Assembly: GCA_964556185.1 (NCBI GenBank)
Contig: CAZKVI010000003.1
Coordinates: forward strand, 2,089-66,088
DNA from: an uncultured Methanosarcinales archaeon
Lineage (GTDB): Archaea; Nanobdellota; Nanobdellia; Woesearchaeales; DSVV01
Direction of reading: 5' to 3'
Length of the DNA stretch: 64,000 nucleotides
Numbering within the stretch: the first letter of the stretch is position 1; each line of letters opens with the position of its first letter. Of this stretch, positions 8,853 to 55,389 are shown one piece after another. A program made the translations under genes and the position numbers. The notes beneath the pieces were generated by a model, which saw only the letters and a list, made by a program, of their open reading frames with translations, did no database searches and was not told where the DNA came from.

Positions 8853-9290
8853 ATGGGAAGATTTGAAGGTTCAAGAGGCAGAAGTTCTGGCCGTGGAAGA
8901 GACTCAAGAAGAGGCGGTAGAAGCGGCAATAGAAGAGATTCTAGTTATAGTAGAGACTCTAGCAGAAGTAATTATGGCAGAAGAGACTCTGGCAGAAGTT
9001 CTTATGGTGGAAGATCTAGCAGAGGCAGAGATTCTGGACGAAGTTATGGTGGCAGAGGCAGTAGAAGAGATAGTAATGACATTGAAATGACCAAAGTTAT
9101 TTGTGCTTCTTGTAAAGAAGAATGCGAAATCCCATTCAAACCTAAAACAGACAAGCCAGTCTATTGCAGAGATTGTTATTCAAAAGAAGGCAATGGCAGA
9201 TCATCTGGCAGATCTAATAATTCTAGCAGAGACCTTGACCAAATCAACGAAAAACTCAACAAAATCATGAAAGCATTAAATGTTGAATAA
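8853..9290 (+). CDS. RG/RS-rich low-complexity protein with a C-terminal CxxC...CxxC zinc ribbon (probably RNA-binding)
   Basis: About 75 aa of GR/SR/RD repeats are followed by 'CASCKEECEIPFKPKTDKPVYCRDCY'. Confidence 0.6.
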   Translation: MGRFEGSRGRSSGRGRDSRRGGRSGNRRDSSYSRDSSRSNYGRRDSGRSSYGGRSSRGRDSGRSYGGRGSRRDSNDIEMTKVICASCKEECEIPFKPKTDKPVYCRDCYSKEGNGRSSGRSNNSSRDLDQINEKLNKIMKALNVE

Positions 9291-9339: not shown

Positions 9340-10713
9340 GTGGTTTTATGGGTGCAAAAATTGAGTTTAATAATAGATCCAAACGCAGCAGAAGAATTTG
9401 ATTATCAATTAGATAGATCTCTAAGAGTTGATATTACTTATGATCTTGATCTTGGTCTTTCAGAAAATTTAGAAAGAAAAATAGCAGCAGTCGCTAGTTC
9501 AAGAGAAAGACCAGATATTATTTGTGGGCAAAGATCTTCTTTAATACAATTACCTGAACCTTCTACTATTTTCAAAGGCTTTGATTTACAAGCCATACAA
9601 GTAAAAGGACATTTCTTTAGACCAACAGAAGAAAGCCGTGTTATTCATAATCCACAAATGACTATTTACACAGGAAGAGGTCATCCTGAAGTAATTTGGC
9701 ATTTCGATGATAAAGGAACACTAATTCTTATTCCAAATCCTGATATTCCTTGTGGTGCAATGCTCTTAGAAAATGCAAAACTTGAATTTAGAGCAGCAAA
9801 AGAAATGATGGAAGTAGGTTTACCTGTTGTTTGTCCAATGGGTTATGGAAATTTTCCTGATTTAGGATTTAATGTATATGATTCTATAATGGCTGCAACT
9901 CCAGGCACACTAAGTGGGTTTGCTATACAAGCTGGAGCATATGGTGATTTGGCAGCTATTAATAGAAGACAAGAAGTTGGATTTATGGTTTATGGAATTT
10001 ACACACCTGATAATTGTCGTTGTTTTGAAAGTGTTCTCAATGTAACTTCTGAATTAGATAAATCAAATAAAAGATTATTTTTAGCTGATTTCTTTAGAGC
10101 TTATGGAGCAGCACTAAGACAATTTCATGATAAAGGTTATATTCATGGGTCTCCTAATTTAGATAATCTTTCTCTTGTACCAGTTAGTGAAGCTAGACGA
10201 GGAATGAAATTACCAAATAAATTACAAACATTTTCTGTGTATGAAATTGTTTTCCATGATCTAACAGGAGACCTTGGAACTATTACGAGAAGAAAAGATG
10301 TTTCAAAAGAAAAATGGTTAAGTCATGTTATTTGGGATTTATCAGTTACAACAGGATTGTTATCTAATTTTTATTTTACACCAGAACGATGGGATATGGT
10401 TTATGGACATGATGGAGAAGCCCGTAGAAATATAATTAGAAGAAACCAAAGAATTGCTGAATTAACACAAGAAGTAGGTTATAATCCTGGTCCTGCTTTT
10501 TTTAAAGGATATTTAGGTGAAGATTTTCATAAACTTCCATCAGATTATTTTGAACATGATGGCAGTATGCTTATGCCATGCGATATAAGAACAAGAATAA
10601 CAATACCTTTACAATTAGCCATGAACAGAGGAGAAAAACCACAAGTAAACATCCCAGAATTCTGCAAAACAGAACCTTTAATGAATGTTGTTAGAAATGT
10701 TTATATGCAGTAA
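9340..10713 (+). CDS. hypothetical protein, possible atypical protein-kinase-like fold; start codon unresolved
   Basis: Long ORF with 'AIQVKG', 'GYIHGSPNLDNLSL' (catalytic-loop-like) and 'VFHDLTGDLG' (DFG-like). The only SD-linked ATG (9348) is out of frame by one nt; see findings. Confidence 0.5.
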   Translation: MVLWVQKLSLIIDPNAAEEFDYQLDRSLRVDITYDLDLGLSENLERKIAAVASSRERPDIICGQRSSLIQLPEPSTIFKGFDLQAIQVKGHFFRPTEESRVIHNPQMTIYTGRGHPEVIWHFDDKGTLILIPNPDIPCGAMLLENAKLEFRAAKEMMEVGLPVVCPMGYGNFPDLGFNVYDSIMAATPGTLSGFAIQAGAYGDLAAINRRQEVGFMVYGIYTPDNCRCFESVLNVTSELDKSNKRLFLADFFRAYGAALRQFHDKGYIHGSPNLDNLSLVPVSEARRGMKLPNKLQTFSVYEIVFHDLTGDLGTITRRKDVSKEKWLSHVIWDLSVTTGLLSNFYFTPERWDMVYGHDGEARRNIIRRNQRIAELTQEVGYNPGPAFFKGYLGEDFHKLPSDYFEHDGSMLMPCDIRTRITIPLQLAMNRGEKPQVNIPEFCKTEPLMNVVRNVYMQ

Positions 10714-10757: not shown

Positions 10758-11843
10758 ATGGGTGTTGAAGAACTTAGAGCAGCAGTAATTGGAGCAAATA
10801 AAACTAATTCAGGCTTAGGTCTATATATTGTTCAGAAATTCCATAAATTAAGTAGAGTAGATTTAGTTGCATTCTCGTGTAGAACAGAAGAATCTGCTAG
10901 ATATGCAAATACTGCTTTTAGAGAACACGGAATTGATGCAACACCTTATTATACTCATAATGGTTCTCCAGAAGATTCAATAGATGCAATGTTAACAGAA
11001 AAAAGACCAGATATTGTTGCAATATGTACACCTAATAGAACACATTTAGATTATCTTGAACTTGTTCTTGATCATAATGATACTTCTGATCGTAAAACCC
11101 ATGTTCTTCTTGAAAAACCTTTAGCAGAAAGTTCTCCAGAGCATATAGAAAGAGATCTTGACAGAGCAATTGAACTTGTAGAAAGAGCTGAAAAACAAGA
11201 CATAGTTCTTACATACAATGCTTCACTTGCTGCATTAGTTGACCCATATAAAGGAAAAGTTGGAGATTTAGATGATAATCAATTTACTGTAGCAATGCAT
11301 ATGAAACATAAAGGAGGGGAATTACCTTCTCCAAGAACACTCCAATACTCAATCTTATCCCATACAATAGGAATACTTCAAGCATATTTTGGTCCAAACA
11401 TGGGTATTGAAAATCTTGAAAGAAAAACTACTGAGCCAACAGGTGATGATAATGCAGTTGGTGCTTATCACAAATTTACATTAACATATGGTGGATGGAA
11501 AAGTGTTCCTTGCATTATTGATCTTTCTAAATCACCAGAACTTGCGAAGCATGAAAGATATTTTGGAGTTAAAGACAATTATGCTCACATTGAAAAGAAA
11601 GATGGTTTCTGGCATCTTGTTTTCAAAGATGAAGAACGAAAAGTTGAAGACTTCCAAGACACAGTTATTGCAAACATGGTAGATGTAGTCAGAACAGAAC
11701 CAAATCGTCGAGGTGTACTTGATCACCCAAAACCAATCCTCGACGGTAGAGCAATGATAATGAACCAAGTCATATTGCACACATTAATGGGAGATCTAAC
11801 ACCAGAAAAAGCTGAACAATATCAGAGAAAGTTGTATAATTAG
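10758..11843 (+). CDS. Gfo/Idh/MocA-family NAD(P)-dependent oxidoreductase
   Basis: N-terminal Rossmann region 'AAVIGANKTNSGLG', then 'PDIVAICTPNRTHLDY' and the 'LLEKPLA' signature. Confidence 0.75.
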   Translation: MGVEELRAAVIGANKTNSGLGLYIVQKFHKLSRVDLVAFSCRTEESARYANTAFREHGIDATPYYTHNGSPEDSIDAMLTEKRPDIVAICTPNRTHLDYLELVLDHNDTSDRKTHVLLEKPLAESSPEHIERDLDRAIELVERAEKQDIVLTYNASLAALVDPYKGKVGDLDDNQFTVAMHMKHKGGELPSPRTLQYSILSHTIGILQAYFGPNMGIENLERKTTEPTGDDNAVGAYHKFTLTYGGWKSVPCIIDLSKSPELAKHERYFGVKDNYAHIEKKDGFWHLVFKDEERKVEDFQDTVIANMVDVVRTEPNRRGVLDHPKPILDGRAMIMNQVILHTLMGDLTPEKAEQYQRKLYN

Positions 11844-13892: not shown

Positions 13893-13933
13893 TCAAGAGG
13901 TTGATTAATTATTATAACAAGGAGGAATTAAAA

Positions 13934-17164: not shown

Positions 17165-19261
17165 ATGGCATTCTTTGGATCAGGATATAAAGGAGAAATG
17201 AAAGAGTACTTCTCAAGTCCAGCAGGTTATTTAGGTAGTTTTGGTGATAATCCTAGAGCTCCAAACATAGAAGCACCAATTATAGGTGTGAAAGATCTTG
17301 GCCAGAGCGTTACAGAAGGTCAAAGATTTGGTAGCTTATTACAAACTTCTACAGAAGCAATAAGAAGAGGAGCAGGTAATATGGAACTTGCAACTATTGC
17401 AGGTGGTCAAGAACCAGGCGGTGCAGAATCTTATGGTGTAGAAGCTAGACAAGCACTAAGAGAATTAGCAAGAGCAAATAATATTTACTTTACTTCAGTC
17501 CATTCGCCTGTTCAAGTTGGAAATGTTTCTGGATTTAATCCTCAAGAAAGAGGTTTTAATGATGAATTTAGACATAGAAGTGTTGAAGAAGTTAAAAGAG
17601 CAATTGAATTTGCAGCAGATGTAGGCGCAGGCGCAGTTGTTGTACATACAGGAGAAGCACAAAGAGATATGTCTCAAGCTCCTTGGAATAGAGAAATTGC
17701 TCCAGGACTGATGGAAATGATGAGTTTTGAAGAAGAACCAGGCAGACAAGTTCTTTATATGGTAGACAGAAGAAATGGTAAATTAATTACAGAAGTTAGA
17801 AAATCTCAAATTGTTTTCGAACCAGAATATGAAAGAGTAGAAATAGCAAACGGTGATTGGAGATATGTATCTGCAGATGGAGATATATTAGATGAGAATA
17901 ATGTCGACCATCTACTACTGAGAGTACCAAAATGGGATAATGAAAGAGCTAAGTTTAAAACATTTAGAAGAGATTGGGATTGGTTTAAATATAAAGCAGA
18001 ACGTTGGGATAAACTTTATCCAAGACCAGATAAAAGAAACTGGACAGCAGAAGAAATGTTTTTTAGAACACAAATGGAAACCAGAATTTTACAATCAAGA
18101 GGTCATTCTTTATTCTATGCAGGTAGATATGAAAAACAAGTAAAACAAAGAGATAGATTATTGAAAGCATTGGAATATTATGGGGAACTTGAGAAAAATA
18201 TACCTGAAGAAGAACTTTGGAAAATTATGAGAGAAGATACTGTATTTTATGGTGCTGCAGGCCAGATTGTCCACGGTGAAAAGAAAAAACCATCTGAAAT
18301 ATTAAAAGATGAACTTAGAGAAACAAATTTAAGTCTAAGACAGATTCATGAAGCTTCTTCTGCAGCAGACGCGCAAGCGGACGAGTATGAAGAAACCCTA
18401 TTACATGTCATGCCAGTTGTTGATTATGCAAAAGATAAAACATCTAGAAGTTATGCAGAAGCAGGAATCTTAGCAATGGATGTAACCCAAAATAATAAAA
18501 ATGTTCAACAAGATGTTTTTGTTGCTCCAGAAAACCTTTGGCCAGAGATGGGTTATGGAACACACCCTCAAGAATTAATTGAATTAGTGTCTGGTGCAAG
18601 AGAACGAATGGTTCAAATGCTTACAGAACAAATGATACCTGATCCTCACGAGCGAAGAGATGAAAAAGGACACCTTCTTATGGTTCCAAATCCTAATTAT
18701 CAGAAAATGGAGAAAGGCAAAGCACAAGAATATGCAAAAAGACATATTAGAGCAACATTTGATACACAACATTTAGGTATGTGGTGGAAACATTTTCAAC
18801 CTTTACCAGGAGAAACAAGAGATAAAAGAAGAGGACGTTTTAAAAAATGGTTTAAGTCTCAAGTTAAAGATATGTTAAAAAAAGATATTCTTGGTCATGT
18901 GCATGCAGTCGATGCTCTTGGTGGTGGTCATCATCACTTACCAATTGGTCAAGGTGACTTACCAGTTAAATGGGCCTTAGAATATCTAAAAAAGAAAGGT
19001 TTCAAAGGAACAATGGTTTCAGAAGGTCATGAAGAAGAATCAAGATTTGGTGCAGGAAGACAATTAACAGCTTCTTGGAGACACTTAGGCACAAATATTA
19101 CTGGTTCTCATGCTGGTGCAGGTGGTGCTGTACCAGGTGGTGGAAATTGGAATGATATTCAATATTCTTATTTCAGAAATATGCAATCTCCTTATTTTAT
19201 TTTCGGAGCTTATTCACCAAGCAATGATTGGCAATTATGGTCACAAGTACCAATGGAATGA
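17165..19261 (+). CDS. xylose-isomerase-like TIM-barrel (AP endonuclease 2 superfamily) protein with a very large internal insertion
   Basis: The motif order 'FTSVHSP', 'AVVVHTGE', 'FDTQHLGMWW', 'GHVHAVDALGGGHHHLPIGQGDLP', 'MVSEGHEE' matches Endo IV/sugar-isomerase barrels. About 350 aa of charged helical sequence lie between the second and third motifs. Confidence 0.55.
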   Translation: MAFFGSGYKGEMKEYFSSPAGYLGSFGDNPRAPNIEAPIIGVKDLGQSVTEGQRFGSLLQTSTEAIRRGAGNMELATIAGGQEPGGAESYGVEARQALRELARANNIYFTSVHSPVQVGNVSGFNPQERGFNDEFRHRSVEEVKRAIEFAADVGAGAVVVHTGEAQRDMSQAPWNREIAPGLMEMMSFEEEPGRQVLYMVDRRNGKLITEVRKSQIVFEPEYERVEIANGDWRYVSADGDILDENNVDHLLLRVPKWDNERAKFKTFRRDWDWFKYKAERWDKLYPRPDKRNWTAEEMFFRTQMETRILQSRGHSLFYAGRYEKQVKQRDRLLKALEYYGELEKNIPEEELWKIMREDTVFYGAAGQIVHGEKKKPSEILKDELRETNLSLRQIHEASSAADAQADEYEETLLHVMPVVDYAKDKTSRSYAEAGILAMDVTQNNKNVQQDVFVAPENLWPEMGYGTHPQELIELVSGARERMVQMLTEQMIPDPHERRDEKGHLLMVPNPNYQKMEKGKAQEYAKRHIRATFDTQHLGMWWKHFQPLPGETRDKRRGRFKKWFKSQVKDMLKKDILGHVHAVDALGGGHHHLPIGQGDLPVKWALEYLKKKGFKGTMVSEGHEEESRFGAGRQLTASWRHLGTNITGSHAGAGGAVPGGGNWNDIQYSYFRNMQSPYFIFGAYSPSNDWQLWSQVPME

Positions 19262-20144: not shown

Positions 20145-21047
20145 TTAAGCTGCAGGTCTAGGTTGTTGTTGACGTACTGGTCGAGGTCTTGCAGCAAGAT
20201 ATGTTCCAGTAGCATCTTCTAAAGAATATGCATGAACATCTATTCTTGTTTCTATTGTTGTAGTTGCATCAGCTTCAATAATTTTTGGTCTTGATCTAGC
20301 CTTAGCAGCACAAGCCATCATCGCATCAATTGTACTATTAGCTCTTGTTGATCCATCATATTTATTGAAAGCTCTCATTGTATATTGAAGTCTTTGATCT
20401 TCCATTCTTTGTTGTATCTGTAAATCTTCTTCACGAGCAGCATCTTCTGTTTCTCTATATCTATCAACTGCTGCAACTAAAGTAGATCTATTAACTTCTC
20501 TCTTAATAGGTTGCCTTAGTGGAACTACATTAGCAGGTCTTTCTAAATACTCATCAACTGCTGTAACTATTCCTGGTTTAGTACCAGAAGCTCTCCTACT
20601 ACCTACTAAATCTCCATAAGAATAACCTGTTGCAGCCCTTGTTCTTGCTCTTTGCTTAGCAGCTGTTTGAGAATATTGTCTAACTTGAGGTTTAGCATAA
20701 CTTTTTCCACCATATGCTGAAACCATATCTGCATGACTTGGACTATTTCCATAAGCTGATCTTCCAGAACGTACAGCAGGTTTTCTTTCTGAGTCTGCAT
20801 ATGTTATAGCAGGAAGATTTGCATACCATGTTCTATATGCTTGAGCTCCAGCTATTACTGCAGCACCTACCAAAGCAAATAATGATGAAGTTTTATCAAA
20901 TCCATAAGTTAATGCTTCATTAATACCAAAAAGAACTCCACCTAATCCAGCTGCTTGAGCTGTTCTAACCATCATTTCTGTAAGTAAATCTACTTCTCCT
21001 ACTGCTGACTCAACTACATCATCTATTGTTCTAGTTATTGAGGTCAT
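20145..21047 (-). CDS. hypothetical Arg/Ala-rich protein with an N-terminal hydrophobic region
   Basis: ATG start at MTSITR. By manual count the product has about 10 Lys against about 30 Arg. It ends 'RPRPVRQQQPRPAA'. Confidence 0.5.
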   Translation of the reverse strand: MTSITRTIDDVVESAVGEVDLLTEMMVRTAQAAGLGGVLFGINEALTYGFDKTSSLFALVGAAVIAGAQAYRTWYANLPAITYADSERKPAVRSGRSAYGNSPSHADMVSAYGGKSYAKPQVRQYSQTAAKQRARTRAATGYSYGDLVGSRRASGTKPGIVTAVDEYLERPANVVPLRQPIKREVNRSTLVAAVDRYRETEDAAREEDLQIQQRMEDQRLQYTMRAFNKYDGSTRANSTIDAMMACAAKARSRPKIIEADATTTIETRIDVHAYSLEDATGTYLAARPRPVRQQQPRPAA

Positions 21048-21134
21048 CCCATATCTATTAAACACTTCAATTATTTAAAATTTTACTTATTATCACCTAA
21101 AAGTTTATAAATAACCCCGAAAAAACAGACTATA

Positions 21135-24738: not shown

Positions 24739-26331
24739 TTATTTTTTCAATTGCTCAGATTTAGCAAAATCTCTATTTGCTTCATCTTGTCTATCCATCC
24801 TTTCTAGTGCACAACCTCTATTGTTATAACATGTAGCCAAGAATTCATCTGAAACGTCTTCTGCTTTATCAATTACAATTGAATATTGTTCAAATGCATT
24901 TTCATTATCTCCTTTTTTAAGGTAAGCATATCCTAATCCTGATATTGCATCATAATCATCTGGTTCTAATTTTAATTGTTCAAATCTACACTCAATAGCT
25001 AAATCATATTCTTCTAAGCTTACAGCTGCAACTGCAGCATTATTATAAACAGCTTTTTGTGTTCCTTCCTCTAATTCATTTCTAACTTCTATTAATATTT
25101 TATAATGACGTAGTGCATCTTCTTTATTTCCAAGTTCTCCATTAGCATAAGCTACACCAAAACGTGCATCATGATTATTTGGATCAAAAGCAAGTAAATA
25201 ATAACCATCTACAATAGCACCTTTCCAATCACCGACTTCTCTTCTTGCACCAAAACTATTAGTTCGTATATACATACAATTAGGAAATAAAGAACTTGCT
25301 CTATTCAAACAATCAGAAGCTTTTTCCATACATTGCTCTTTTTCACCTTCTTCAGCAATATCAGATCTTACTATCCATTCATATCCTAAGTTCCCATACA
25401 TAATTCCAGCAATTTGTTTTTTATTAAGACCTTTCATATATCCTCCTCTTTCTAATTCATCTCTACCTAAACCAAATTCTTCAATATATTCTTCATCACT
25501 CCTTGCAATTCCTGCAGTAGTTTCCCAATTCACATGACTACCATCAAATTTCCCCCATCTTACAAACATATGTTCTGGGCCTAATACAGCTTCAATAGGG
25601 AAATTAAGTACTTGCCCAATTGCAAGATAAATCATTGACATATTGTCACAATCCATTTGGTAAAATCCTTGACTATATTTTTCTATTTTTCTTCTTCTTG
25701 AACCTCTTCTATATTCACTAAGGAAAGAGAAATAACCAGAAGGAGATTGAGTACGTAAAATATGATCATTTATGAAATCATTTACTTCTTCTGATGCTTC
25801 TGTAAATTCATCTCCTTCAAAATCAATAATTTTTTGAGCATTTCCTTCATCTTTTAGATATTCTACAATTTCTCCTTCTTGTTTTGTAAATGCTGAACCT
25901 AGTCTATTATTTTCTTTATAAACAACATTAAATATATCAGAAAGAGCTTCATCAATCCATCCCATAATCTTTCTTATGTCATCTAGATCATATGTTTCTA
26001 TCATTTCACTACTAAAAGCTGAGTCAACTCCTTCCTCACCAAGCCTTGAACCTAAAGATACTCTTTCTGGGCTTGCAATTTCTGCTTTATATTTTGTTCT
26101 AATTTCATGAATAACAGAATCTAAGAAATCATAATTTTCTTGAGTTACTTCAAAACCTTGTAGATGTTCAGCATCTAAAAATGAATGAGCATATGTATTA
26201 TATCTAGAATCAAATCCAGATCTTTCTCTCTCAATTGCCAAGGCTGTAACAGGTGCAAAACTAGTCACAATTGCTGCCAAACCAGCTGCAGCTCCACTAG
26301 CACCCAAAAACCACCTTCTACTCCTTTCCAT
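24739..26331 (-). CDS. Tat-signal protein with a SirB1-like transglutaminase-fold domain and C-terminal TPR repeats
   Basis: 'MERSRRWFLGASGAAAGLAAIV' carries a twin-Arg motif. 'DCDNMSMIYLAIGQVLNFPIEAVLGPEHMFVRW' shows the Cys...His spacing of Transglut_core2. The C-terminal ~200 aa are TPR-like. Confidence 0.55.
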   Translation of the reverse strand: MERSRRWFLGASGAAAGLAAIVTSFAPVTALAIERERSGFDSRYNTYAHSFLDAEHLQGFEVTQENYDFLDSVIHEIRTKYKAEIASPERVSLGSRLGEEGVDSAFSSEMIETYDLDDIRKIMGWIDEALSDIFNVVYKENNRLGSAFTKQEGEIVEYLKDEGNAQKIIDFEGDEFTEASEEVNDFINDHILRTQSPSGYFSFLSEYRRGSRRRKIEKYSQGFYQMDCDNMSMIYLAIGQVLNFPIEAVLGPEHMFVRWGKFDGSHVNWETTAGIARSDEEYIEEFGLGRDELERGGYMKGLNKKQIAGIMYGNLGYEWIVRSDIAEEGEKEQCMEKASDCLNRASSLFPNCMYIRTNSFGARREVGDWKGAIVDGYYLLAFDPNNHDARFGVAYANGELGNKEDALRHYKILIEVRNELEEGTQKAVYNNAAVAAVSLEEYDLAIECRFEQLKLEPDDYDAISGLGYAYLKKGDNENAFEQYSIVIDKAEDVSDEFLATCYNNRGCALERMDRQDEANRDFAKSEQLKK

Positions 26332-28390: not shown

Positions 28391-28828
28391 ATGGCTAAAG
28401 TTAAGAGTAATGCAATTGGAAAACTTGAAGATGGTACTGAAGATAATAGAGCATATAATGCATTGGTTCGTCAATATGGTGTTGCATTTAAAGAATTATA
28501 TGATAATTTTCCAAGAGAACCAAAACCAAGATTAGGTCTTTATATGATGAGTATTAAAAGACCTGAAGGAGTCTTACGTCTTACACCAGGGGTTGTTGGT
28601 AGTTCATCAGATGGGATCCAGAAAAGAGTTCAAGCACATCTAGGAAAATGCTTAGATCAAATTGGATTAGATGATTTATGTATGGACGTTTTTACAGTTT
28701 CTTGTAATAGTACGAGCAGTGTTTGTGAAATAACTCCTTACACACTTGAAGCTAGAGCTTATTTAAAACATTATGGACAACAAATACTTGTTCCAGAAAT
28801 GCGAAGATTAAGATCTCAATCAAAATAA
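28391..28828 (+). CDS. hypothetical protein
   Basis: ATG 28391 follows 'gggtgcaaa'. The listed TTG start at 28364 lies in the promoter-proximal 'ttgatttctct' block. No family recognised. Confidence 0.5.
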   Translation: MAKVKSNAIGKLEDGTEDNRAYNALVRQYGVAFKELYDNFPREPKPRLGLYMMSIKRPEGVLRLTPGVVGSSSDGIQKRVQAHLGKCLDQIGLDDLCMDVFTVSCNSTSSVCEITPYTLEARAYLKHYGQQILVPEMRRLRSQSK

Positions 28829-29232
28829 TCTTCATAAGCAAATTTTCTTTTTTCAAATGTACAAGATCCTTTGTCTTCAATAACATTTCCATCTAGAGAA
28901 TTCCTAAATCTAGCAATTAATGCATTACAATCACTACATCTTCGAAAACAAGTTCCAATTTCCACTTCAAAACCTTTTTCATTTAATTGTTTTAACTTAG
29001 TTGGCACTTCTGCTCTTTCTCTGAAGACATTATAAACATTATGAACAAAAGAAGAATCAATTATTGCATCAGAGAGTCTAATTTGAAGTTTACATTTCTT
29101 AGGTGCTTTAGTTTCAACAACATCTTTCCTTATAAGGATACATCTAGAATTCTTTAGTCTATTCTCTCTATCTTGCTTTTGCTTTGCAAACTTATCAGGA
29201 AGTTTAATACTTCCATCAGGATTGAATTCCAT
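28816..29232 (-). CDS. hypothetical protein
   Basis: Start moved to MEFNPDGS (ATG 29232), because the listed N-terminal 32 codons are the antisense or same-strand read-through of a tRNA gene. The ATG lies 5 nt after the tRNA 3' end. Confidence 0.45.
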   Translation of the reverse strand: MEFNPDGSIKLPDKFAKQKQDRENRLKNSRCILIRKDVVETKAPKKCKLQIRLSDAIIDSSFVHNVYNVFRERAEVPTKLKQLNEKGFEVEIGTCFRRCSDCNALIARFRNSLDGNVIEDKGSCTFEKRKFAYEDYFD

Positions 29233-29236
29233 TTTA

Positions 29237-29485: not shown

Positions 29486-30367
29486 TTATCCTTGATAAAA
29501 ACCAATTAACTGTCTTTGTCTCTTAACATGTCTTAATTTTCTTAAGGCTTTTACTTCGATTTGTCTTATTCTTTCTCTTGTTAAATCAAATACTTGACCA
29601 ATCTCTTCAAGAGAATAATGACGAGGATGATCAATTCCATATCTCATTTTCATAACTTTTTCTTCTCTGGGTGTTAATTCAGCAAGTACACTTCTAACAG
29701 CCTTTGCTAAATCAGAATCCCCTACATTTTCATCAGGTCTTCGAACACTAGCTCCTTCTATAAAATCACCTATGGTTGCATCTGATTCATCACCAACTTT
29801 TTGCTCTAATGATAATGGTTCTCTTGCAAGCCTATAAATATCTTCAATTTTTTCAACTGGTTCACCTAACCAATCTGCAATTTCTTCAGAAGTTGGTTCT
29901 CTACCAAGATCAGTAACAAGTTTTCGAGCCGTTCTTCTAACTTTAGTAACCATTTCTAATTTATAAATTGGAATTCTTATTGTTCTTACTGTAGCTTCTA
30001 TTCCTCTAATAACACTTTGTCTAATCCACCAAGAAGCATATGTAGAAAATTTATATCCTCTTCTATATTCAAATTTTTCAACAGCTCTTATTAAACCTAA
30101 ATTACCTTCTTGAATTAAATCACCAAGTGGCAAGCCTCTATATTGGTATTGTCTTGCAATACTAACAACTAGTCTTAAATTGCCTTTTATTAAATCTTCT
30201 TTAGCTGTAGCTGCTTCATAAGGAGTGCCTTCTTCCATTGTTGTAGCTAATCTAACTTCATCATCTCTAGATAATAATGCTACAGCCCCCATTTGATTCA
30301 TATACTTCCTTAGAACTCTAGGATCATCTCTATATCTTGGCCCACCTTGATAATGACTAACACCCAT
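29486..30367 (-). CDS. bacterial-type RNA polymerase sigma-70 family factor (regions 2, 3 and 4; no region 1.1)
   Basis: '[61 protein letters not shown]' covers regions 2.1-2.4. '[13 protein letters not shown]' is region 3.0. '[15 protein letters not shown]' and '[29 protein letters not shown]' cover regions 4.1-4.2. Confidence 0.9.
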
Positions 30368-30502
30368 TTCATAAGGTAATCAATAGTTACTTTTAAACCT
30401 TCCTAGGTGGTCTGTGTTGATTATACCCATTCTCAAGTAGTTAAAAACAGAAAGGCTTATATATGGGATAAAGTACCTTCATATATAAAGTGGGGTTTAA
30501 AT

Positions 30503-31510
30503 ATGAGTAAAGCAAGACAGCTTATACAAAGAGCATTGGCAGCAAAAGATGATGAATTTTTTGATGGTGTTTATAGATTTAAAAGAGGAAATGTGTTTTC
30601 ACCAATCCCTATAGACACAGCTGACCATCTTGATCTTTATAGTTCTATAGTTCAGCTTTTGAGACCAAGCAGAACACCAAGAAAATCTATTGGGGCAACT
30701 CTACTTTATCTTTTCTTAGTATCTTCACAGGAGTTTTATGGTCAAGGACCTAAAAATTATACAACTTTTGGAAGAAGAGGAAGAGATCAAATGAAAGAAC
30801 AATTGGAAGCATATTGTAGTTCTATATCTGCTTTAGAAATTGTTTATCATGATAATAATACACCAGATGGAGCTAATGCAACTGTAGGTAAATTTGATGA
30901 ACATAGCACAAGACATGAATTAGAAGATTTACTAGATCTTGTTCGAACTGATGAATGGAGAGAAGGAAGAAGTTATGAAATTGTTTATGTACAATCACCA
31001 GGAGATCTTGTTAGTGAAGATGGCAGAGAAGATATTGTAGCAGGTAGTTTATCTCAAAGATTTATAGAAGGACTTAGAGTACACGAAGATTATTTTGCAA
31101 CAAATGATACATTTAGAGAAGAAGTACCTGATGAAGATTATGCACACCTTTTTGAAGGTGATGTTAGTCATAGGGAAACATATGAACTATGTGATCAATA
31201 TCTTGTAGATCACCAAGAACTTTCAGATACAACAAGAGAACATCTTGAAGGATTTAGAGCTAGAATGTTATTCATGGCATGCTCACAAGAACAAGACCCA
31301 AAGGCGGAAGCTTTCTTTGATGGATTAGTTGCCCAAGTTTTACCAGCTCTCCCAACAGAAGAGTTTTACATAAATCAACTAGCTAGAAACGTTGCACAAA
31401 CTGGCGGTGTGTTAATTCTTGAAGGATTCCAACAACAAGAAGTAGAAGGTTTCGAACTTCTCCAAGAAGATAGGAATGTTCGTTTATACACTAGAGTTGT
31501 TGAGGAATAA
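30503..31510 (+). CDS. hypothetical acidic protein, divergent from the sigma-70 gene
   Basis: ATG 30503 follows 'gtggggtttaaat'. The BRE/TATA 'gaaaggcttatatat' lies about 35 nt upstream. No family recognised. Confidence 0.55.
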   Translation: MSKARQLIQRALAAKDDEFFDGVYRFKRGNVFSPIPIDTADHLDLYSSIVQLLRPSRTPRKSIGATLLYLFLVSSQEFYGQGPKNYTTFGRRGRDQMKEQLEAYCSSISALEIVYHDNNTPDGANATVGKFDEHSTRHELEDLLDLVRTDEWREGRSYEIVYVQSPGDLVSEDGREDIVAGSLSQRFIEGLRVHEDYFATNDTFREEVPDEDYAHLFEGDVSHRETYELCDQYLVDHQELSDTTREHLEGFRARMLFMACSQEQDPKAEAFFDGLVAQVLPALPTEEFYINQLARNVAQTGGVLILEGFQQQEVEGFELLQEDRNVRLYTRVVEE

Positions 31511-32295: not shown

Positions 32296-32973
32296 ATGGA
32301 AAAACTACACAGAGTTCAGAAATTATTAAGCAACTACGGCTATTGTTCTAGACGAAAAGCTGAAACATTAATCCAAGATGGAAGAGTTAGAGTAAATAAC
32401 AAAAGAATTACAATTGGTGATAAAGCTACTGAGAAAGATAATTTATATGTAGATAATAAACTAGTAAATAAAGAAAGTAAAATATACATAATCTTCAACA
32501 AACCTGTTGGTTGTGTAACTGCAGTAAGAGACAGAGATTACAAAACAGTTATGGATTTTGTAAAAGTTAAAGAAAGAGTTTTCCCAATTGGAAGATTAGA
32601 TTTCAACACTTCTGGATTATTATTGTTAACAAATGATGGAGACTTTGCTAACAAAGTAATGCATCCAAGATATGAAGTAGAGAAAACATACATCGTAGAA
32701 ATTGACAGACAAATTAGTAAAAAAGATATGCTAAATATCCAAAGAGGAGTTAAATTAAGAGATGGATTCACTTCCCCAGCTAAACTTAGAAGAATTAACT
32801 TAGATATAATAGAAATTAAAATCCACGAGGGCAAAAACAGAGTTGTAAGAAGAATCTTCAACAAATTAGGTTATAGAATTAACTCATTAGAAAGAGTTGC
32901 AATTGGTAAACTAAGATTAGGCAAATTACAATCTAAAAAATACAAAATTCTAAAAACAGAACCAAGAATTTAA
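32296..32973 (+). CDS. RsuA/RluB-family pseudouridine synthase with an S4 domain
   Basis: S4 domain 'RVQKLLSNYGYCSRRKAETLIQDGRVRVN'. Catalytic motif 'PIGRLDFNTSGLLLLTNDG'. Confidence 0.85.
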   Translation: MEKLHRVQKLLSNYGYCSRRKAETLIQDGRVRVNNKRITIGDKATEKDNLYVDNKLVNKESKIYIIFNKPVGCVTAVRDRDYKTVMDFVKVKERVFPIGRLDFNTSGLLLLTNDGDFANKVMHPRYEVEKTYIVEIDRQISKKDMLNIQRGVKLRDGFTSPAKLRRINLDIIEIKIHEGKNRVVRRIFNKLGYRINSLERVAIGKLRLGKLQSKKYKILKTEPRI

Positions 32974-35222
32974 CCCCAAGAATAATCAACAACTATATGC
33001 ACTGGAACTATTGTGCCACCATACTCAAAATTTCCCATACCTGCTCCTTGTAATCTTGTTGCATCGTTATTTAATTCTGCTAAAACATCTGGATTATTTG
33101 GATAATGAGGAACAACACTAGTCTTACTTGTAGATGAATCATGGAAATATCCAAATGGATCTGGTGTTGCAATTCCCCAGAAATCACATGTTCTTGAGAA
33201 CTCAGAAGACTCCCACCAAGATAATAACCAGTCAGTACTTCCATCATAAACATTCAAATTAACTTCATAAGCAGAAGGATCATCTTCAGAAGCTTCTAAT
33301 CTTGTTGGTGCTTTACTTGAAGAAGGATATTTCTCATCAACTTCCCATGTATTATATTCAGAACCACTTACAGTACTTGAATCACTTTCCCATTGCAGAC
33401 TACATGATCTTGCGTATTCTATAAATTGGTGTTCATTATAACTATAATAAAGCATTTGATCTTTAACAACAAACTCATCATTGTCCTCGTCATAAACCAA
33501 TGTATCTCTTGACATCATATATCCTCTTTCAAACCAAGATCCTGTTCCAGGATCTCCTGATAAAGTTAATTCAGACATATCTACAGATGTACTATAACTC
33601 CATGAATAAGTTGTATAACCACTCCATTCAGGAGCACATTTACCTTCTGCATCAATATCAAATTGAGTAAATGCAATATTATCTAAATGTGAATTTGCAA
33701 CAATAACAACTGCTACATCTATTTCTTCTGTTGGTCTTGTTCTACAAAATTTTAACTTTTTCAACTCAGAAACATCTTGGTAAAACCAATGCTCTCCAAT
33801 TTTATAAACTATTTGTGTTGCAAAGTCTGGTTGAGAATCTGTAGTAATTAAACTAAAATCAAACTCAACTCTATCAATATCATCTTCAAAGAAATAATAA
33901 TAATACATTATTCCTCCTGGGTTTAAATTAACTTCTTGAGTGTATTTTTCTTTATTCTCAAATGTTTTCTTTTTCCTACTTTGTCCATATGGTTTTTTTG
34001 TTGGTTTATTATTATGATCATAATAAAACTTAAATGGTTCTGTATTGTAATTGTATAAAGCATATTGTTTAAACTCTTCATAAAAGTCTGGTCTATTTTT
34101 TATTGCATCTTTCATACCTAATAAACCTGCTTCATCTAACATTTTCTTGACGACCATTCCATCTTTTCCATATCTATGTGATAAAAACCAAGGCCATAAA
34201 TAAGAACCATATTGATGATAAGTTACATTATCAGAGTCAAAAAAATCTTTATTAAAATAAGGAAAAATATTACTATCAAAACCATGCTCTGTATTAACTT
34301 CAGGATATGTAAAATCTTCTGACCATGTTGCAGTTGATTCCCAAATCCATTCTTCTGTAGAATATGACTTCAAAGGAATATATTGTTGAAAACAATGAAA
34401 TAATTCATGTGCTGTTGATGTTTTTAATGCATCATCACTTTGTGAAGTACTAATTAAAATATGACATCTATTAGCTCCTTCATGATCATCCATATATTGT
34501 TGTCCATCATCTTCTAAGCTTTGTACTTTTACATAAATCCAATCTGTTGGTTCTTTCATTCCAAGATTTTTATATTTATTATAAGAATGTTCTAAAGCAG
34601 CTTTTACAATATCTGCTTTATCAGTTATCCAAGGATCATCATAATGCACTTGCCATTTTCCATCAATTGGATGTTCATTATCCATTGCATTTACTGAAGG
34701 TATAATAGCTACTGCATCTAAAAATTCCCTTGCTAAAGATTCATCTTCTTGATTAATTTTATACCAATAACTTTCAGGATCATCAGGATTTGTAACAAAA
34801 GGTCTTAGAATATCTTGTGTTTCCTCAGAGAAATCATCAATTCTATCATTAATCATCAATAATAAGAAAGAACTATCTCTTCTTTCTGCTCTAATTGATT
34901 TGTATTCATTTGGTAAGTTTTTATGATCAAATGCTTCCAAAACTCTTAGAATATAATACTCTTCTTCTGTAATTATTCCTTTATTATGATAAGCATCATT
35001 GATTAATGTTAGAGATAATGGTTCTTCAGGTTCCTCTGGTTCTCTTTCTTCATAAATATCTAATAACCAGTCTTCAAAATCACTTGTATCTACATTACCA
35101 CCACCAATTGAAAATCCACTATCATCACTTCCACAACCTTTGAATAACAAGAATAGAATTACTAATATTACAATACCTACAATTGCAAGAAGAATAGTTT
35201 TCCGCCCCATAGGCATTTCCAA
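32970..35222 (-). CDS. membrane-anchored or secreted protein with an HExxH metalloprotease-like motif
   Basis: N-terminal anchor 'KTILLAIVGIVILVILFLLFKGC'. 'TSTAHELFHCFQQ' contains HExxH. The extracellular part is large, W/Y/D-rich and contains very few Lys (Lys-poor). Confidence 0.5.
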   Translation of the reverse strand: MEMPMGRKTILLAIVGIVILVILFLLFKGCGSDDSGFSIGGGNVDTSDFEDWLLDIYEEREPEEPEEPLSLTLINDAYHNKGIITEEEYYILRVLEAFDHKNLPNEYKSIRAERRDSSFLLLMINDRIDDFSEETQDILRPFVTNPDDPESYWYKINQEDESLAREFLDAVAIIPSVNAMDNEHPIDGKWQVHYDDPWITDKADIVKAALEHSYNKYKNLGMKEPTDWIYVKVQSLEDDGQQYMDDHEGANRCHILISTSQSDDALKTSTAHELFHCFQQYIPLKSYSTEEWIWESTATWSEDFTYPEVNTEHGFDSNIFPYFNKDFFDSDNVTYHQYGSYLWPWFLSHRYGKDGMVVKKMLDEAGLLGMKDAIKNRPDFYEEFKQYALYNYNTEPFKFYYDHNNKPTKKPYGQSRKKKTFENKEKYTQEVNLNPGGIMYYYYFFEDDIDRVEFDFSLITTDSQPDFATQIVYKIGEHWFYQDVSELKKLKFCRTRPTEEIDVAVVIVANSHLDNIAFTQFDIDAEGKCAPEWSGYTTYSWSYSTSVDMSELTLSGDPGTGSWFERGYMMSRDTLVYDEDNDEFVVKDQMLYYSYNEHQFIEYARSCSLQWESDSSTVSGSEYNTWEVDEKYPSSSKAPTRLEASEDDPSAYEVNLNVYDGSTDWLLSWWESSEFSRTCDFWGIATPDPFGYFHDSSTSKTSVVPHYPNNPDVLAELNNDATRLQGAGMGNFEYGGTIVPVHIVVDYSWG

Positions 35223-36605: not shown

Positions 36606-36702
36606 ATATTTAGATTATATTAAGAATATATAAATCTTTCTATAGTTGCCCCTGAAGGGGGTGCATGAGTTTAAATACCTAATACTATTCAGTAGTAATA
36701 AA

Positions 36703-38647: not shown

Positions 38648-39094
38648 ATGCTAGACGGAAAACAAATTGCAGATGTTGTTAGAGCTTTTGAAGAAGAAGT
38701 ATTAAGCCAAATAGCTCCTGATCAAGCAGCAGATGCAGCTGCAGATCTTGATATGAGGTTACGTAGAGATTTATTAGGTGATGCAGTGTTCGGTGATATT
38801 GTTTTTAAAGATGGTTATTATTATAGCACAAGTTCCCAGTATGGCAAACAAAAAGCAGACTCAACACCAGGTCTTATCTTAAGGTATTTATTGGACCATG
38901 AAGGAGAAACTTTCTCAAAAGATGAACTCTTTCCAAACATTCCACGTGAAGACAGTACTTGTTCTGGTGCATTAACACTTGATGTTATTCCTTGGGTAAA
39001 TGAATATTCAAAAGTCTATGAAGCATTTAAAGAAGGATATGCACCTACAAAATATGGAATAAGAAGAATACAAGAAGCTCCTCAAGATACTTAA
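38648..39094 (+). CDS. hypothetical protein
   Basis: 148-aa ORF with SD 'agagga'. No family recognised. Confidence 0.45.
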   Translation: MLDGKQIADVVRAFEEEVLSQIAPDQAADAAADLDMRLRRDLLGDAVFGDIVFKDGYYYSTSSQYGKQKADSTPGLILRYLLDHEGETFSKDELFPNIPREDSTCSGALTLDVIPWVNEYSKVYEAFKEGYAPTKYGIRRIQEAPQDT

Positions 39095-43300: not shown

Positions 43301-43302
43301 TT

Positions 43303-55388: not shown

Positions 55389-55389
55389 A

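What the first reader, a model, noticed from the sequence alone, without database searches (positions are those of the whole stretch)
20145..21047. Interspersed set of Arg-rich, Lys-poor orphan proteins in a Lys-rich proteome
Core proteins here are very Lys/Ile/Asn-rich, as expected for AT-rich DNA. A subset of ORFs is conspicuously Lys-poor and rich in R, G, A, D, E and Q while still using AT-rich codons (Arg as AGA). The subset comprises 9340, 10758, 17165, 20145, 24739, 28391, 29486, 30503, 32970, 38648, 53178 C-terminus, 54177, 59084 and 62168. For example, 20145-21047 has about 10 K against about 30 R by my count. These ORFs sit as single genes or pairs between conserved ribosomal clusters, mostly with their own promoters. 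Several have clear bacterial affinities (sigma-70, SpoT-like HD, Tat signal). This suggests repeated acquisition followed by nucleotide amelioration, or selection for function in a different compartment or host.
Basis: partly seen in the sequence, partly recalled or inferred. Interest (0 to 1): 0.5.

Follow-up and report, generated by a model that had tools for sequence, protein, structure and literature searches.

The report
Hypervariable arginine-rich orphan archaeal gene
In an AT-rich marine DPANN archaeon, a minority of genes really do encode lysine-poor, arginine-rich proteins; they are a mixed group, not one imported class, and the flagged gene is a clade-restricted orphan that occurs as three very different versions in otherwise almost identical genomes.

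Summary
The window (31.5% GC) comes from a marine oxygen-poor-water Woesearchaeota/Nanoarchaeota (DPANN) population. The count for 20145-21047 is exact: 10 K, 30 R, 46 A in 300 aa. K:R heterogeneity among ORFs is real (chi2=355, df 67). ORFs with K/(K+R) below 0.45 are four times as frequent as in 68 related loci of similar GC (9/54 vs 36/780).

The distribution is continuous, not bimodal. Only 6 of the 14 listed ORFs pass Bonferroni, 5 are not distinguishable, and two outliers were missed (8853, 36646).

The set has at least three parts:
- Clade-restricted, fast-evolving orphans: 20145, 30503, 28391, 38648 (dN/dS 0.5-1.1), plus the homologue-less singleton 24739.
- Conserved proteins with many arginines: an RpoD-like sigma-70, AsnB and a TIM-barrel protein.
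- Exported or membrane proteins that are low in both K and R.

Synonymous codon use is native (AGA 83% vs 78%) and GC3 is lower than in core genes. The focal gene has three alleles, 52-55% identical, between flanks that are 95-100% identical, yet all keep GC1/GC2 near 0.5 and GC3 near 0.09. That points to selection on composition, not lagging amelioration. Its function is unknown. Moderate interest.

The parts
20145..21047 (-). Focal orphan gene: 300 aa, Ala 15%, Arg 10%, Lys 3.3%, GC1/2/3 = 0.53/0.52/0.08. It occurs as three deeply divergent alleles.
   Evidence: sequence and counts. (no family in Pfam, NCBIfam, PADLOC or PHROGs). (only three homologues). (52-55% aa identity, dN about 0.38, dN/dS 0.9-1.1, between flanks that are 95-100% identical). 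(AlphaFold2: 223 of 300 residues with pLDDT below 50; helix at 187-229).
21073..21080 (-). TATA-like box (TTTTAAAT) 33 nt upstream of the focal ATG, in the 114-nt divergent spacer shared with the L7Ae gene.
   Evidence: This is a sequence match only; function is inferred.
29486..30367 (-). RpoD-like sigma-70 factor (regions 1.2, 2, 3, 4). R 11.9%, K 5.5%.
   Evidence: four Pfam regions. (NCBIfam RpoD 377 bits, below the equivalog cut-off). (52% identity to PDB RpoD). (75-84% aa identity to close relatives, dN/dS 0.30-0.51).
30503..31510 (+). Orphan gene always divergently paired with the sigma-70 gene. 335 aa, K 8, R 26. Fast-evolving.
   Evidence: start and counts. (four homologue clusters in 5.8 billion proteins). 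(pairing conserved in L008, L174, L175). (51-61% identity, dN/dS 0.52-0.88). (no confident fold, no structural match).
28391..28828 (+). Small orphan gene (145 aa). Its K:R is unremarkable (10:11) but it evolves fast. No homologue was found in L008.
   Evidence: no family. (59% identity to L174, dN/dS 0.73). (no hit in L008).
38648..39094 (+). Small acidic orphan gene (148 aa). Fast-evolving.
   Evidence: no Pfam or NCBIfam family; one weak PHROG of unknown function. (36% identity to the L174 counterpart, dN/dS 0.79).
24739..26331 (-). Population-specific orphan with a twin-arginine-like signal (SRRWFLG), weak C-terminal TPR matches and a sub-threshold transglutaminase-like match. Inserted between the EF-2 and EF-1alpha genes.
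   Evidence: (absent at this site in L008/L009). (no homologue other than itself). (K 26, R 34, Bonferroni-significant).
17165..19261 (+). 698-aa protein with a xylose-isomerase-like TIM barrel (AP_endonuc_2). K-poor but highly conserved.
   Evidence: (96% identity to L008, dN/dS 0.08). (only a weak match to archaeal MJ1311).
9340..10713 (+). 457-aa orphan, K 4.2%, R 6.6%, with no family or solved relative.
8853..9290 (+). Unlisted outlier: an R/S/G/Y low-complexity N-terminus followed by a CxxC-x17-CxxC zinc finger. R 17.9%, K 6.2%.
   Evidence: PF23477. (TIGR04272)..
36646..38541 (+). Unlisted outlier: glutamine-hydrolysing asparagine synthase (AsnB type), K 32, R 40.
32970..35222 (-). Acidic lipoprotein-like protein (lipobox-type N-terminus) with an HExxH metalloprotease motif. 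Low in both K and R, so not Arg-rich.
   Evidence: (MXAN_6640 HExxH family, below cut-off). (83% identity, dN/dS 0.29).
62168..63631 (+). Gln-rich orphan with a predicted Sec-type signal peptide. K 2.5%, R 4.1%.
54177..55388 (+). Q/E-rich probable coiled-coil protein (weak SMC-like match) in an apparent operon with a polytopic membrane protein (53178-54143) and a Lon_C-domain protein. The K deficit is nominal only.
59084..60844 (-). 586-aa protein with a short MESH1/SpoT-type HD motif. K 8.2%, R 7.5%; only nominally K-poor.
   Evidence: HD_4, E=4e-4, below threshold..
10758..11843 (+). GFO_IDH_MocA-type oxidoreductase.

Best explanation
The Lys-poor, Arg-rich ORFs are the tail of a continuous distribution, and the tail has at least three unrelated parts. 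(1) Clade-restricted orphans. Four of them (20145, 30503, 28391, 38648) evolve 5-30 times faster at non-synonymous sites than their neighbours; the fifth, 24739, has no homologue at all, so its rate could not be measured. (2) Conserved proteins whose families carry many functional arginines, kept by purifying selection: an RpoD-like sigma-70, AsnB and a TIM-barrel protein. (3) Exported or membrane proteins that are low in both basic residues. In none of them is the composition a nucleotide-level relic: third codon positions are as AT-rich as, or more AT-rich than, those of native core genes. For the focal gene, the composition (Ala/Arg/Thr/Gln/Tyr-rich; Lys/Ile/Asn/Phe-poor) is itself the selected trait, while most individual positions are free to change. 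The protein is probably largely disordered and basic. It has a conserved N-terminal pair of weakly hydrophobic helices and a few invariant short motifs (SAYGN.PSHADM.SAYGGKS, LxAAVDxY, C-terminal QQ..AA). Shown: the gene exists as at least three alleles with in-frame indels, sharply bounded by near-identical flanks. Inferred: the alleles are exchanged by homologous recombination through the conserved L7Ae and histone genes, and the diversity is maintained by diversifying or frequency-dependent selection at an interface with a virus or a host. Also inferred: Arg is preferred to Lys for phosphate or aromatic contacts in the disordered region.
For: Organism: EF-2 is 58-77% identical to Woesearchaeota/Nanoarchaeota MAGs and SAGs, and the same contig occurs in five marine metagenomes. 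Composite nature: Pfam, NCBIfam and PDB annotation, export signals, and a category comparison defined after the fact (K/(K+R) 0.76 for core genes, 0.61 for exported, 0.46 and 0.42 for conserved-domain and orphan cytoplasmic genes; Kruskal p=2e-6). Native synonymous usage: AGA 0.83 vs 0.78, with G/C-ending codons about half as frequent in the listed set. Rates against close relatives: seven listed genes have dN/dS 0.08-0.91 and 13 unlisted genes 0-0.17 (Mann-Whitney p=0.002); K/(K+R) against dN gives rho=-0.55, p=0.011, n=20. Focal gene: pairwise aa identity 52-55%, dN 0.37-0.39, dS 0.34-0.43. Between L008 and L091 the flanking L24e, S28e and L7Ae genes have dS=0.00. Nucleotide identity falls from 97-100% to 17-76% within the gene and recovers at the histone gene. 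All three alleles hold GC1/2/3 at 0.53/0.49-0.52/0.08-0.10 and K at 3-5%. By regression on 128 Woesearchaeota loci this composition corresponds to a genome of 57-63% GC, where GC3 would be about 0.67. The ORF stays open with about 28 gapped codons per pair, all in frame. Orphan status. Sigma-70 K:R equals that of bacterial RpoD, with 20 of 29 R positions conserved.
Against: The functional part is not demonstrated: there are no expression, localisation or interaction data. Whole-gene dN/dS is about 1 (0.7 in the N-terminal half; 1.0-1.4 in the C-terminal half, where alignment is uncertain), so positive selection is not shown, only non-neutrality of composition. The disorder call rests on a three-sequence alignment. 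The N-terminal helices do not reach a transmembrane hydropathy threshold (maximum Kyte-Doolittle value 1.38). The three alleles come from different samples, so coexistence in one population was not tested. The categories were defined with knowledge of composition. Rates are available for only 20 genes and three relatives. Only 64 kb of the genome was seen.
Confidence: 0.55

Rival explanations
1. One reading: the Lys-poor genes were repeatedly acquired from GC-richer (mostly bacterial) donors. Synonymous sites have since ameliorated to the AT-rich host, and amino-acid composition lags behind.
For: Sigma-70 is a bacterial family and is clearly RpoD-like. Bacterial genes in DPANN are documented (PMC8204110). 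The K:R of the outliers matches Woesearchaeota loci of 50-63% GC. The junctions between conserved clusters vary in gene content: 24739 is absent in L008, L008 has an extra sigma-70 and a radical SAM gene, and L174 has a LAGLIDADG ORF. A tRNA lies next to the sigma-70 gene. None of the outliers occurs at the same position in 80 more distant EF-2 loci.
Against: There is no residual foreign codon usage, and GC3 (0.08-0.16) is below that of core genes. The strongest outliers have no homologues anywhere outside the clade. With dN about equal to dS in the focal gene, a legacy composition would decay as fast as GC3 did, yet three alleles keep it. 24739 is the only gene with evidence of recent gain or loss, and it is already fully native at synonymous sites (GC3 0.11). 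The sigma factor shows no net R-to-K drift relative to bacterial RpoD (5 positions K-to-R vs 2 R-to-K).
Confidence: 0.2
2. Relaxed constraint: the focal ORF and the other fast orphans are decaying or non-functional reading frames, and their odd composition carries no meaning.
For: dN/dS is near 1. There are no known domains. Structure-prediction confidence is low.
Against: A 300-codon frame stays open in three alleles despite many indels, in 31-34% GC DNA where stop codons are frequent. Codon-position asymmetry is extreme (GC1/2 about 0.5, GC3 about 0.09), which non-coding or freely drifting sequence would not keep. There are invariant motifs and a more conserved N-terminal half (dN/dS about 0.7). 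Each allele was assembled independently in 4-11 contigs.
Confidence: 0.08
3. Targeted hypermutation (a diversity-generating retroelement or a similar system, as known in DPANN) creates the diversity of the focal gene.
For: DGRs are reported as frequent in DPANN genomes (from my own knowledge, not checked here). The divergence is confined to one gene.
Against: No template repeat matches the gene anywhere in the 64-kb window. No reverse-transcriptase domain appears among the ORFs that were scanned or that carry precomputed Pfam hits. Differences are spread over the whole gene, include many indels and are not adenine-specific.
Confidence: 0.03
4. Effector repertoire: the Lys-poor, fast-evolving orphans and the RpoD-like sigma factor act outside the archaeon's own cytoplasm, on or in a host cell (possibly a bacterium). 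Their composition reflects that destination.
For: [quoted passage not shown] An RpoD-like sigma has no obvious partner in an archaeon, and no anti-sigma factor was found in the published survey (PMC8204110). The sigma factor and its constant partner 30503 evolve fast. Several set members carry export signals. -35/-10-type promoter-like sites are not enriched in the archaeon's own DNA (71 found vs 82.5 +/- 9.2 expected).
Against: The focal protein, 30503 and the sigma factor have no recognisable export signal. No secretion apparatus was seen in the window. The host is unknown. All of this is circumstantial.
Confidence: 0.07

Closest known systems
Flexible 'metagenomic island' genes with allelic replacement in marine prokaryote populations
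   Same: A single locus is highly divergent between genomes whose flanks are almost identical. The boundaries are sharp and compatible with homologous recombination through conserved flanks.
   Different: This is one small gene of unknown function placed inside a ribosomal-protein, histone and EF-2 neighbourhood, not a multi-gene surface-polysaccharide island. A cell-surface location is not shown. Coexistence of alleles in one population was not tested.
Bacterial-type sigma-70 factors in Woesearchaeota (Castelle et al. 2021, PMC8204110)
   Same: The window's 29486-30367 is such a gene: all four regions are present and it lies on a contig with archaeal ribosomal proteins and a histone.
   Different: This work adds that it is RpoD-like with a bacterial K:R, that it evolves several times faster than core genes (dN/dS 0.3-0.5), and that it is always paired with a fast-evolving orphan (30503-31510) in four genome versions (the window, L008, L174, L175).
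Amelioration of horizontally transferred genes (Lawrence and Ochman model; from my own knowledge)
   Same: Compositionally atypical genes are interspersed among native ones, and some have a foreign (bacterial) family affiliation.
   Different: The atypical signal is at codon positions 1 and 2 only. Position 3 and codon choice are native or beyond. The most atypical genes have no detectable donor and evolve too fast for a relic composition to persist.
Arg/Tyr/Gly/Ser-rich low-complexity regions of RNA-binding proteins (FUS-like 'sticker' composition; from my own knowledge)
   Same: Residues 77-186 of the focal protein have a net charge of +10, with 12 R, 8 Y, 17 S+T, 9 G and several [S/G/A]Y[G/S] motifs. 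The neighbouring-type protein 8853-9290 has RGG/RS/SYG repeats before a zinc finger.
   Different: This is a resemblance in composition only. There is no homology, and no evidence here of RNA binding or condensate formation. Ala at 15% is not typical of those regions.
Diversity-generating-retroelement target proteins of DPANN archaea
   Same: A hypervariable protein in a DPANN genome.
   Different: There is no template repeat, no reverse transcriptase and no adenine-specific pattern. Variation spans the whole gene and includes indels.

Membership tests
Recently transferred genes undergoing amelioration | Nucleotide composition or synonymous codon usage differs from that of native genes. | tested here: not met
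   Codon preferences are the same (AGA 0.83 vs 0.78; GCA/GCT, ACA, CCA identical). GC3 is 0.08-0.16, below the core median of 0.19.
Recently transferred genes undergoing amelioration | Closer homologues exist in a donor lineage than in relatives of the recipient. | tested here: inconclusive
   Met for the sigma-70 gene (bacterial RpoD, E=3e-87). Not met for the focal gene, 30503 or 24739, which have no homologues outside the clade. Not tested for the remaining genes; the tools give no taxonomy for hits.
Recently transferred genes undergoing amelioration | Patchy presence among close relatives. | tested here: inconclusive
   24739 is absent in L008/L009. The focal gene, the sigma-70 gene, 30503 and 17165 are syntenic in all close relatives that could be examined. 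All are absent at the same position in more distant loci.
Sigma-70 family, RpoD-like (gene 29486-30367) | Regions 1.2, 2, 3 and 4 are present, with conserved core-binding and -10/-35 recognition motifs. | tested here: met
   Four Pfam regions at E of 2e-8 to 3e-21. The alignment to PDB RpoD shows FSTYA.WWIRQ, RTIRIP and [15 protein letters not shown].
Sigma-70 family, RpoD-like (gene 29486-30367) | Scores as an RpoD equivalog, i.e. a primary sigma factor. | tested here: not met
   The best NCBIfam RpoD models give 377 and 313 bits, against cut-offs of 555 and 354. Region 1.1 and the non-conserved region are absent in this 293-aa protein.
Sigma-70 family, RpoD-like (gene 29486-30367) | A bacterial RNA polymerase core to bind. 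| not testable with these tools
   Only 64 kb of the genome is available. The window encodes archaeal RpoE, Spt4 and TFE and no bacterial RNA polymerase subunit.
Hypervariable locus with allelic replacement | Divergence is sharply confined between near-identical flanks. | tested here: met
   Between L008 and L091, L24e, S28e and L7Ae have dS=0.00 and the focal gene has dS=0.34 and dN=0.39. The 100-nt identity profile drops to 0.17-0.76 only inside the gene.
Hypervariable locus with allelic replacement | Several alleles segregate within one population. | not tested
   The three alleles were recovered from different metagenomes. Read-level data are not available here.
DGR variable protein | A template repeat paired with a variable region, a nearby reverse transcriptase, and adenine-specific substitutions. 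| tested here: not met
   No repeat involves 20145-21047. No reverse-transcriptase domain appears in the Pfam results for the window. The substitution spectrum is not adenine-specific and indels are frequent.
Intrinsically disordered protein | Predicted lack of a fixed fold, a disorder-type composition, and rapid evolution with indels while composition is conserved. | tested here: inconclusive
   pLDDT is below 50 for 223 of 300 residues, but from a three-sequence alignment. Composition is enriched in A, R, T, Q, P, S and depleted in F, W, C, I, L. Indels and conserved composition are shown.
Twin-arginine (Tat) exported protein (gene 24739-26331) | An S/T-R-R-x-F-L-K-type motif followed by a hydrophobic stretch and an A-x-A site. 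| tested here: met
   The N-terminus is MERSRRWFLGASGAAAGLAAIVTSFAPVTALA, with a hydrophobic segment at residues 8-26. This is a motif match only.
Twin-arginine (Tat) exported protein (gene 24739-26331) | TatA/TatC translocase encoded in the genome. | not testable with these tools
   No such gene lies in the window, and the rest of the genome is not available.

The most novel reading that the evidence does not exclude
The Lys-poor, Arg-rich, rapidly diversifying orphans (20145, 30503, 28391, 38648, 24739), together with the RpoD-like sigma-70, form a host-directed repertoire of an episymbiotic Woesearchaeon. On this reading the proteins act on or in another cell, possibly a bacterium, where a sigma-70 would find an RNA polymerase to redirect. 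Their composition and allelic turnover would then be driven by that antagonistic interface and not by the archaeon's own cytoplasm. Similar Lys-poor gene clusters in other AT-rich Woesearchaeota (L132, L109) would be lineage-specific versions of the same kind of repertoire.
Probability: 0.07. Interest if true: 0.85.

Novelty: new member of a known kind. Interest (0 to 1): 0.35.

Why it matters
In an AT-rich DPANN genome, a protein's amino-acid make-up can be held far from mutational equilibrium even while its sequence turns over at nearly the synonymous rate. Compositional outliers therefore cannot be read as horizontal-transfer scars without checking codon position 3, rates and donors. The work also picks out concrete candidates for symbiont-host or symbiont-virus interface genes in uncultured marine Woesearchaeota: a three-allele orphan beside the L7Ae and histone genes, and a sigma-70/orphan gene pair conserved across four genome versions. 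That pairing offers a way into the open question of what bacterial sigma factors do in archaea.

Tried and rejected
- Family searches. Pfam, NCBIfam, PADLOC and PHROGs gave nothing for the focal protein, 9340 or 30503, and nothing above the curated thresholds for 28391, 38648 or 62168.
- Remote homology. A profile search of the focal family over 1.84 billion representative proteins returned only the three input sequences. No GTDB species representative encodes it, and no IMG/VR viral contig encodes it or 30503.
- Structure. AlphaFold2 models were low-confidence for the focal protein (pLDDT 47) and 30503 (pLDDT 54). Foldseek against the PDB gave no match at E of 0.001 or better.
- PDB sequence searches. 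Nothing for 9340. Only a marginal MJ1311 hit for 17165, so I dropped the label 'bacterial-type' for that protein.
- Metagenome scan anchored on UPF0182, meant to obtain more close relatives. It returned one short close contig (93% identity); the rest were 67% identical or less, with no conserved synteny. Divergence data therefore cover only 20 genes.
- Bimodality of K/(K+R). Rejected; one Gaussian component is preferred.
- 'Orphans are generally Lys-poor in Woesearchaeota'. Rejected. Singleton ORFs in AT-rich loci average 0.69 and widely shared ORFs 0.71. Only the tail below 0.45 is confined to ORFs with few homologues.
- Positional analogues of the focal gene upstream of L7Ae in 38 more distant loci. 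None; the neighbour differs in every lineage.
- DGR or repeat-mediated variation. No repeats and no adenine bias.
- Enrichment of bacterial -35/-10 promoter-like sites near the sigma-70 gene. None (71 found vs 82.5 expected).
- Transmembrane anchoring of the focal protein. Hydropathy peaks at 1.38, below the usual 1.6 threshold, so it stays undecided.
- Literature search for hypervariable genes in Woesearchaeota. It returned only 16S-region papers.
Full report
**Source.** The window is 31.5% GC. It carries archaeal ribosomal-protein genes, a histone, RpoE, Spt4, TFE, EF-2 and EF-1alpha. Its EF-2 is 58-77% identical to EF-2 of Woesearchaeota/Nanoarchaeota MAGs and single-cell genomes. The same sequence (99.7-100% identical) was assembled from five marine metagenomes. 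So this is an uncultured marine DPANN archaeon. The focal protein is absent from every GTDB species representative.

**The observation.** Over 68 ORFs of at least 80 aa the pooled K/(K+R) is 0.65, and heterogeneity is very large (chi2=355, df 67, p~1e-40). Eight ORFs pass a Bonferroni-corrected test for a K deficit: 20145, 29486, 8853, 30407/30503, 9340, 17165, 36646 and 24739.

Of the 14 listed ORFs, six pass that test and three more are nominal. Five cannot be told apart from the pool (10758, 28391, 53178, 38648, 32970). Two outliers were missed (8853 and 36646).

The distribution is continuous and unimodal. It is nevertheless unusually broad. In 68 related Woesearchaeota loci of 30-36% GC, only 4.6% of ORFs fall below 0.45, against 17% here (Fisher p=0.0015). 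The SD is 0.13 there and 0.18 here.

**Codon level.** Synonymous codon choice is the same in listed and unlisted genes (AGA 0.83 vs 0.78; identical preferences for Ala, Thr, Pro, Ser). The one difference is that G/C-ending codons are about half as frequent in the listed genes. GC3 is 0.08-0.16 in the outliers and about 0.19 in core genes. GC12 and GC3 are negatively correlated (rho -0.40). The atypical signal therefore lies only in the encoded amino acids.

**What the genes are.** They are a mixed group.
- 29486-30367 is a complete sigma-70 (regions 1.2-4). It is RpoD-like, 52% identical to a bacterial RpoD, though below NCBIfam's equivalog cut-offs. Sigma-70 genes in Woesearchaeota have been reported, and their role is unexplained (PMC8204110).
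- 36646-38541 is an AsnB-type asparagine synthase.
- 17165-19261 has a xylose-isomerase-like TIM barrel. Its only (weak) solved relative is archaeal MJ1311.
- 59084-60844 has a roughly 50-aa MESH1/SpoT-type HD motif, below threshold.
- 24739 has a twin-arginine-like signal. 32970 has a lipobox-type N-terminus and an HExxH motif. 62168 has a Sec-type signal. 53136 is a polytopic membrane protein.
- 20145, 9340, 30503, 28391 and 38648 match nothing of known function in Pfam, NCBIfam, PADLOC or PHROGs; 38648 has one weak hit to a PHROG of unknown function.
- 8853-9290 is an RGG/RS/SYG low-complexity region followed by a CxxC-x17-CxxC zinc finger.

In a grouping made after the fact, core information-processing genes have K/(K+R) of 0.76. 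Exported or membrane proteins have 0.61, with both K and R low. Conserved-domain cytoplasmic proteins have 0.46 and cytoplasmic orphans 0.42.

**Evolutionary rates.** This is the most informative result. Three close relatives (L008, L174, L175) have core proteins 88-100% identical to the window's and share synteny. Against them, 13 unlisted genes have dN/dS of 0-0.17. The listed genes have:
- 0.91 (20145)
- 0.79 (38648)
- 0.73 (28391)
- 0.52-0.88 (30503)
- 0.30-0.51 (sigma-70)
- 0.29 (32970)
- 0.08 (17165)

The difference is significant (Mann-Whitney p=0.002), and K/(K+R) against dN gives rho=-0.55, p=0.011, n=20. The orthologues keep a low K/(K+R). The orphans are true orphans: three sequence clusters for the focal family among 5.8 billion proteins and 1.84 billion representatives, four for 30503, and only itself for 24739.

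**The focal gene in detail.** Its three alleles (P0001 in the window, P0002 in L008-L010, P0003 in L091-L093) are 52-55% identical pairwise. dN is 0.37-0.39, dS is 0.34-0.43, and there are about 28 gapped codons per pair, all in frame. The flanking NDK, L24e, S28e, L7Ae and histone genes are 95-100% identical. Between L008 and L091, the L24e, S28e and L7Ae genes have no synonymous difference at all. In 100-nt windows, identity drops from 97-100% to 17-76% inside the gene and recovers at the histone gene. Each allele was assembled independently in 4-11 contigs.

This pattern needs either allele import by recombination through the conserved flanks or local hypermutation. There is no repeat, template or adenine bias to suggest a retroelement.

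All alleles keep Ala at 14-16%, K at 3-5% and R at 6-10%, with GC1/2/3 of 0.53/0.5/0.08-0.10. By regression over 128 Woesearchaeota loci, that amino-acid make-up corresponds to a genome of 57-63% GC, where GC3 would be about 0.67. Non-synonymous change is as fast as synonymous change, so a relic composition could not survive while GC3 fell to 0.08. The composition itself must be under selection. This is an inference, but a strong one.

The protein has a more conserved N-terminal half (dN/dS about 0.7) with two weakly hydrophobic Gly/Ala-rich helices (maximum hydropathy 1.38, below a transmembrane threshold). It also has invariant motifs (SAYGN.PSHADM.SAYGGKS; LxAAVDxY; C-terminal QQ..AA), a basic Ser/Thr/Tyr/Arg-rich stretch (residues 77-186, net charge +10) and one confident helix (187-229). 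223 of 300 residues have pLDDT below 50, although the alignment has only three sequences. A TATA-like box lies 33 nt upstream of the ATG.

More distant Woesearchaeota have unrelated genes upstream of L7Ae. The gene is therefore specific to a narrow clade.

**Interpretation.** Acquisition followed by amelioration fits at most the sigma factor and possibly some enzymes. Even for the sigma factor, the arginines are the family's own: K:R is 15:31 against 19:29 in bacterial RpoD, and 20 of 29 R positions are conserved. It does not fit the orphans that dominate the tail.

The 'other compartment' idea fits four proteins with export or membrane signals, but these are not Arg-rich. My best account is therefore composite. 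The tail combines selection-maintained composition in fast-evolving clade-specific proteins, family-intrinsic arginines in conserved proteins, and a general depletion of basic residues in exported proteins.

For the focal gene I propose a largely disordered, basic protein whose alleles are exchanged by recombination and kept diverse by an antagonistic interaction with a virus or a host. That last step is inferred, not shown.

**Generality.** Other AT-rich Woesearchaeota loci also contain clusters of Lys-poor, low-GC3 ORFs without known domains: an eight-gene block with a ThiF/E1-like protein in L132, and several small ORFs in L109. However, most lineage-specific ORFs in the phylum are Lys-rich like the core. 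Lys-poor orphans are thus a recurrent minority, four times enriched in this window.

**Verdict.** Compositional heterogeneity, bacterial genes in DPANN and hypervariable loci are all known kinds of thing. The new elements are the three-allele orphan beside the L7Ae and histone genes, the link between Lys-poor composition and fast evolution at native GC3, and the conserved sigma-70/orphan pair. Interest is moderate (0.35). The most novel reading not excluded, a host-directed effector repertoire that includes the sigma factor, has low probability (about 0.07).

Noticed in passing
window 29237-29356 (-), 48650-48763 (-), 48773-48897 (-): Rfam finds three tRNA genes of 114-125 nt, apparently containing introns, that ARAGORN missed (it reported only tRNA-Ala at 50269-50342). 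One overlaps the start of the mechanically listed ORF 28816-29328, so that gene's true start is further downstream (138 aa in the JGI call).
   Followed up: partly
window 43236-43305 and 50054-50121, with the 6.8 kb between them: Direct repeats of about 70 nt (84-92% identical) bracket a low-GC (26-29%), very Lys-rich block of small genes (nucleotidyltransferase-like, DUF6036, unknowns). The block ends next to the tRNA cluster. The JGI assembly of the same population breaks inside this block. It is probably an integrated mobile element.
   Followed up: partly
window 29486-31510; L008 716-2577; L174 3874-5887; L175 567-2692: The RpoD-like sigma-70 gene is always divergently paired with the fast-evolving orphan 30503-31510. 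L008 carries a second, tandem sigma-70 and a radical SAM gene at this junction. L174 carries a LAGLIDADG ORF and an intron-less tRNA there. -35/-10 promoter-like sites are not enriched in the surrounding 20 kb (71 found vs 82.5 +/- 9.2 expected).
   Followed up: partly
window 8853-9290 (+); L132 9539-9922: A small protein whose N-terminal 75 residues are RGG/RS/SYG-type low complexity (R 17.9%), followed by a CxxC-x17-CxxC zinc finger (PF23477, TIGR04272). A homologue sits directly upstream of UPF0182 in a distant Woesearchaeota locus.
   Followed up: partly
L132 12736-20888 (- strand); L109 12746-17486: Other AT-rich Woesearchaeota loci hold clusters of Lys-poor, low-GC3 ORFs with no Pfam domain. 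The exception is one ThiF/E1-like protein in an eight-gene block in L132. They are not homologous to the window's outliers.
   Followed up: partly
window 12588-13892 (+), repeats at 13489-13899: The ribosomal stalk protein P0 (L10) is 434 aa long. It has a long Ala/Glu/Lys/Pro-rich C-terminal extension built from degenerate 60-80-nt repeats.
   Followed up: no
window 53136-57348 (+): An apparent three-gene operon: a polytopic membrane protein, a Gln/Glu-rich probable coiled-coil protein, and a 652-aa protein with a Lon_C protease domain flanked by N- and C-terminal hydrophobic segments (weak BrxL-like hit only).
   Followed up: no
whole window: Across genes, GC at codon positions 1 and 2 is negatively correlated with GC3 (rho -0.40, p=0.0014). 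The difference in G/C-ending codons between Lys-poor and Lys-rich genes reaches significance mainly in two-fold and three-fold degenerate codon families and Leu. Lys-poor genes also have higher dS (rho -0.49).
   Followed up: partly
window 51341-51843 (-): A ParE-toxin / MazE-type antitoxin pair lies next to small HTH proteins, just downstream of the tRNA-Ala gene.
   Followed up: no
window 13576-13624 and 53151-53199: A 49-nt direct repeat (82% identical) is shared between the P0 gene's C-terminal extension and the 5' end of the ORF at 53136. The called start of that gene (53178) lies inside the repeat. Its meaning is unknown.
   Followed up: no
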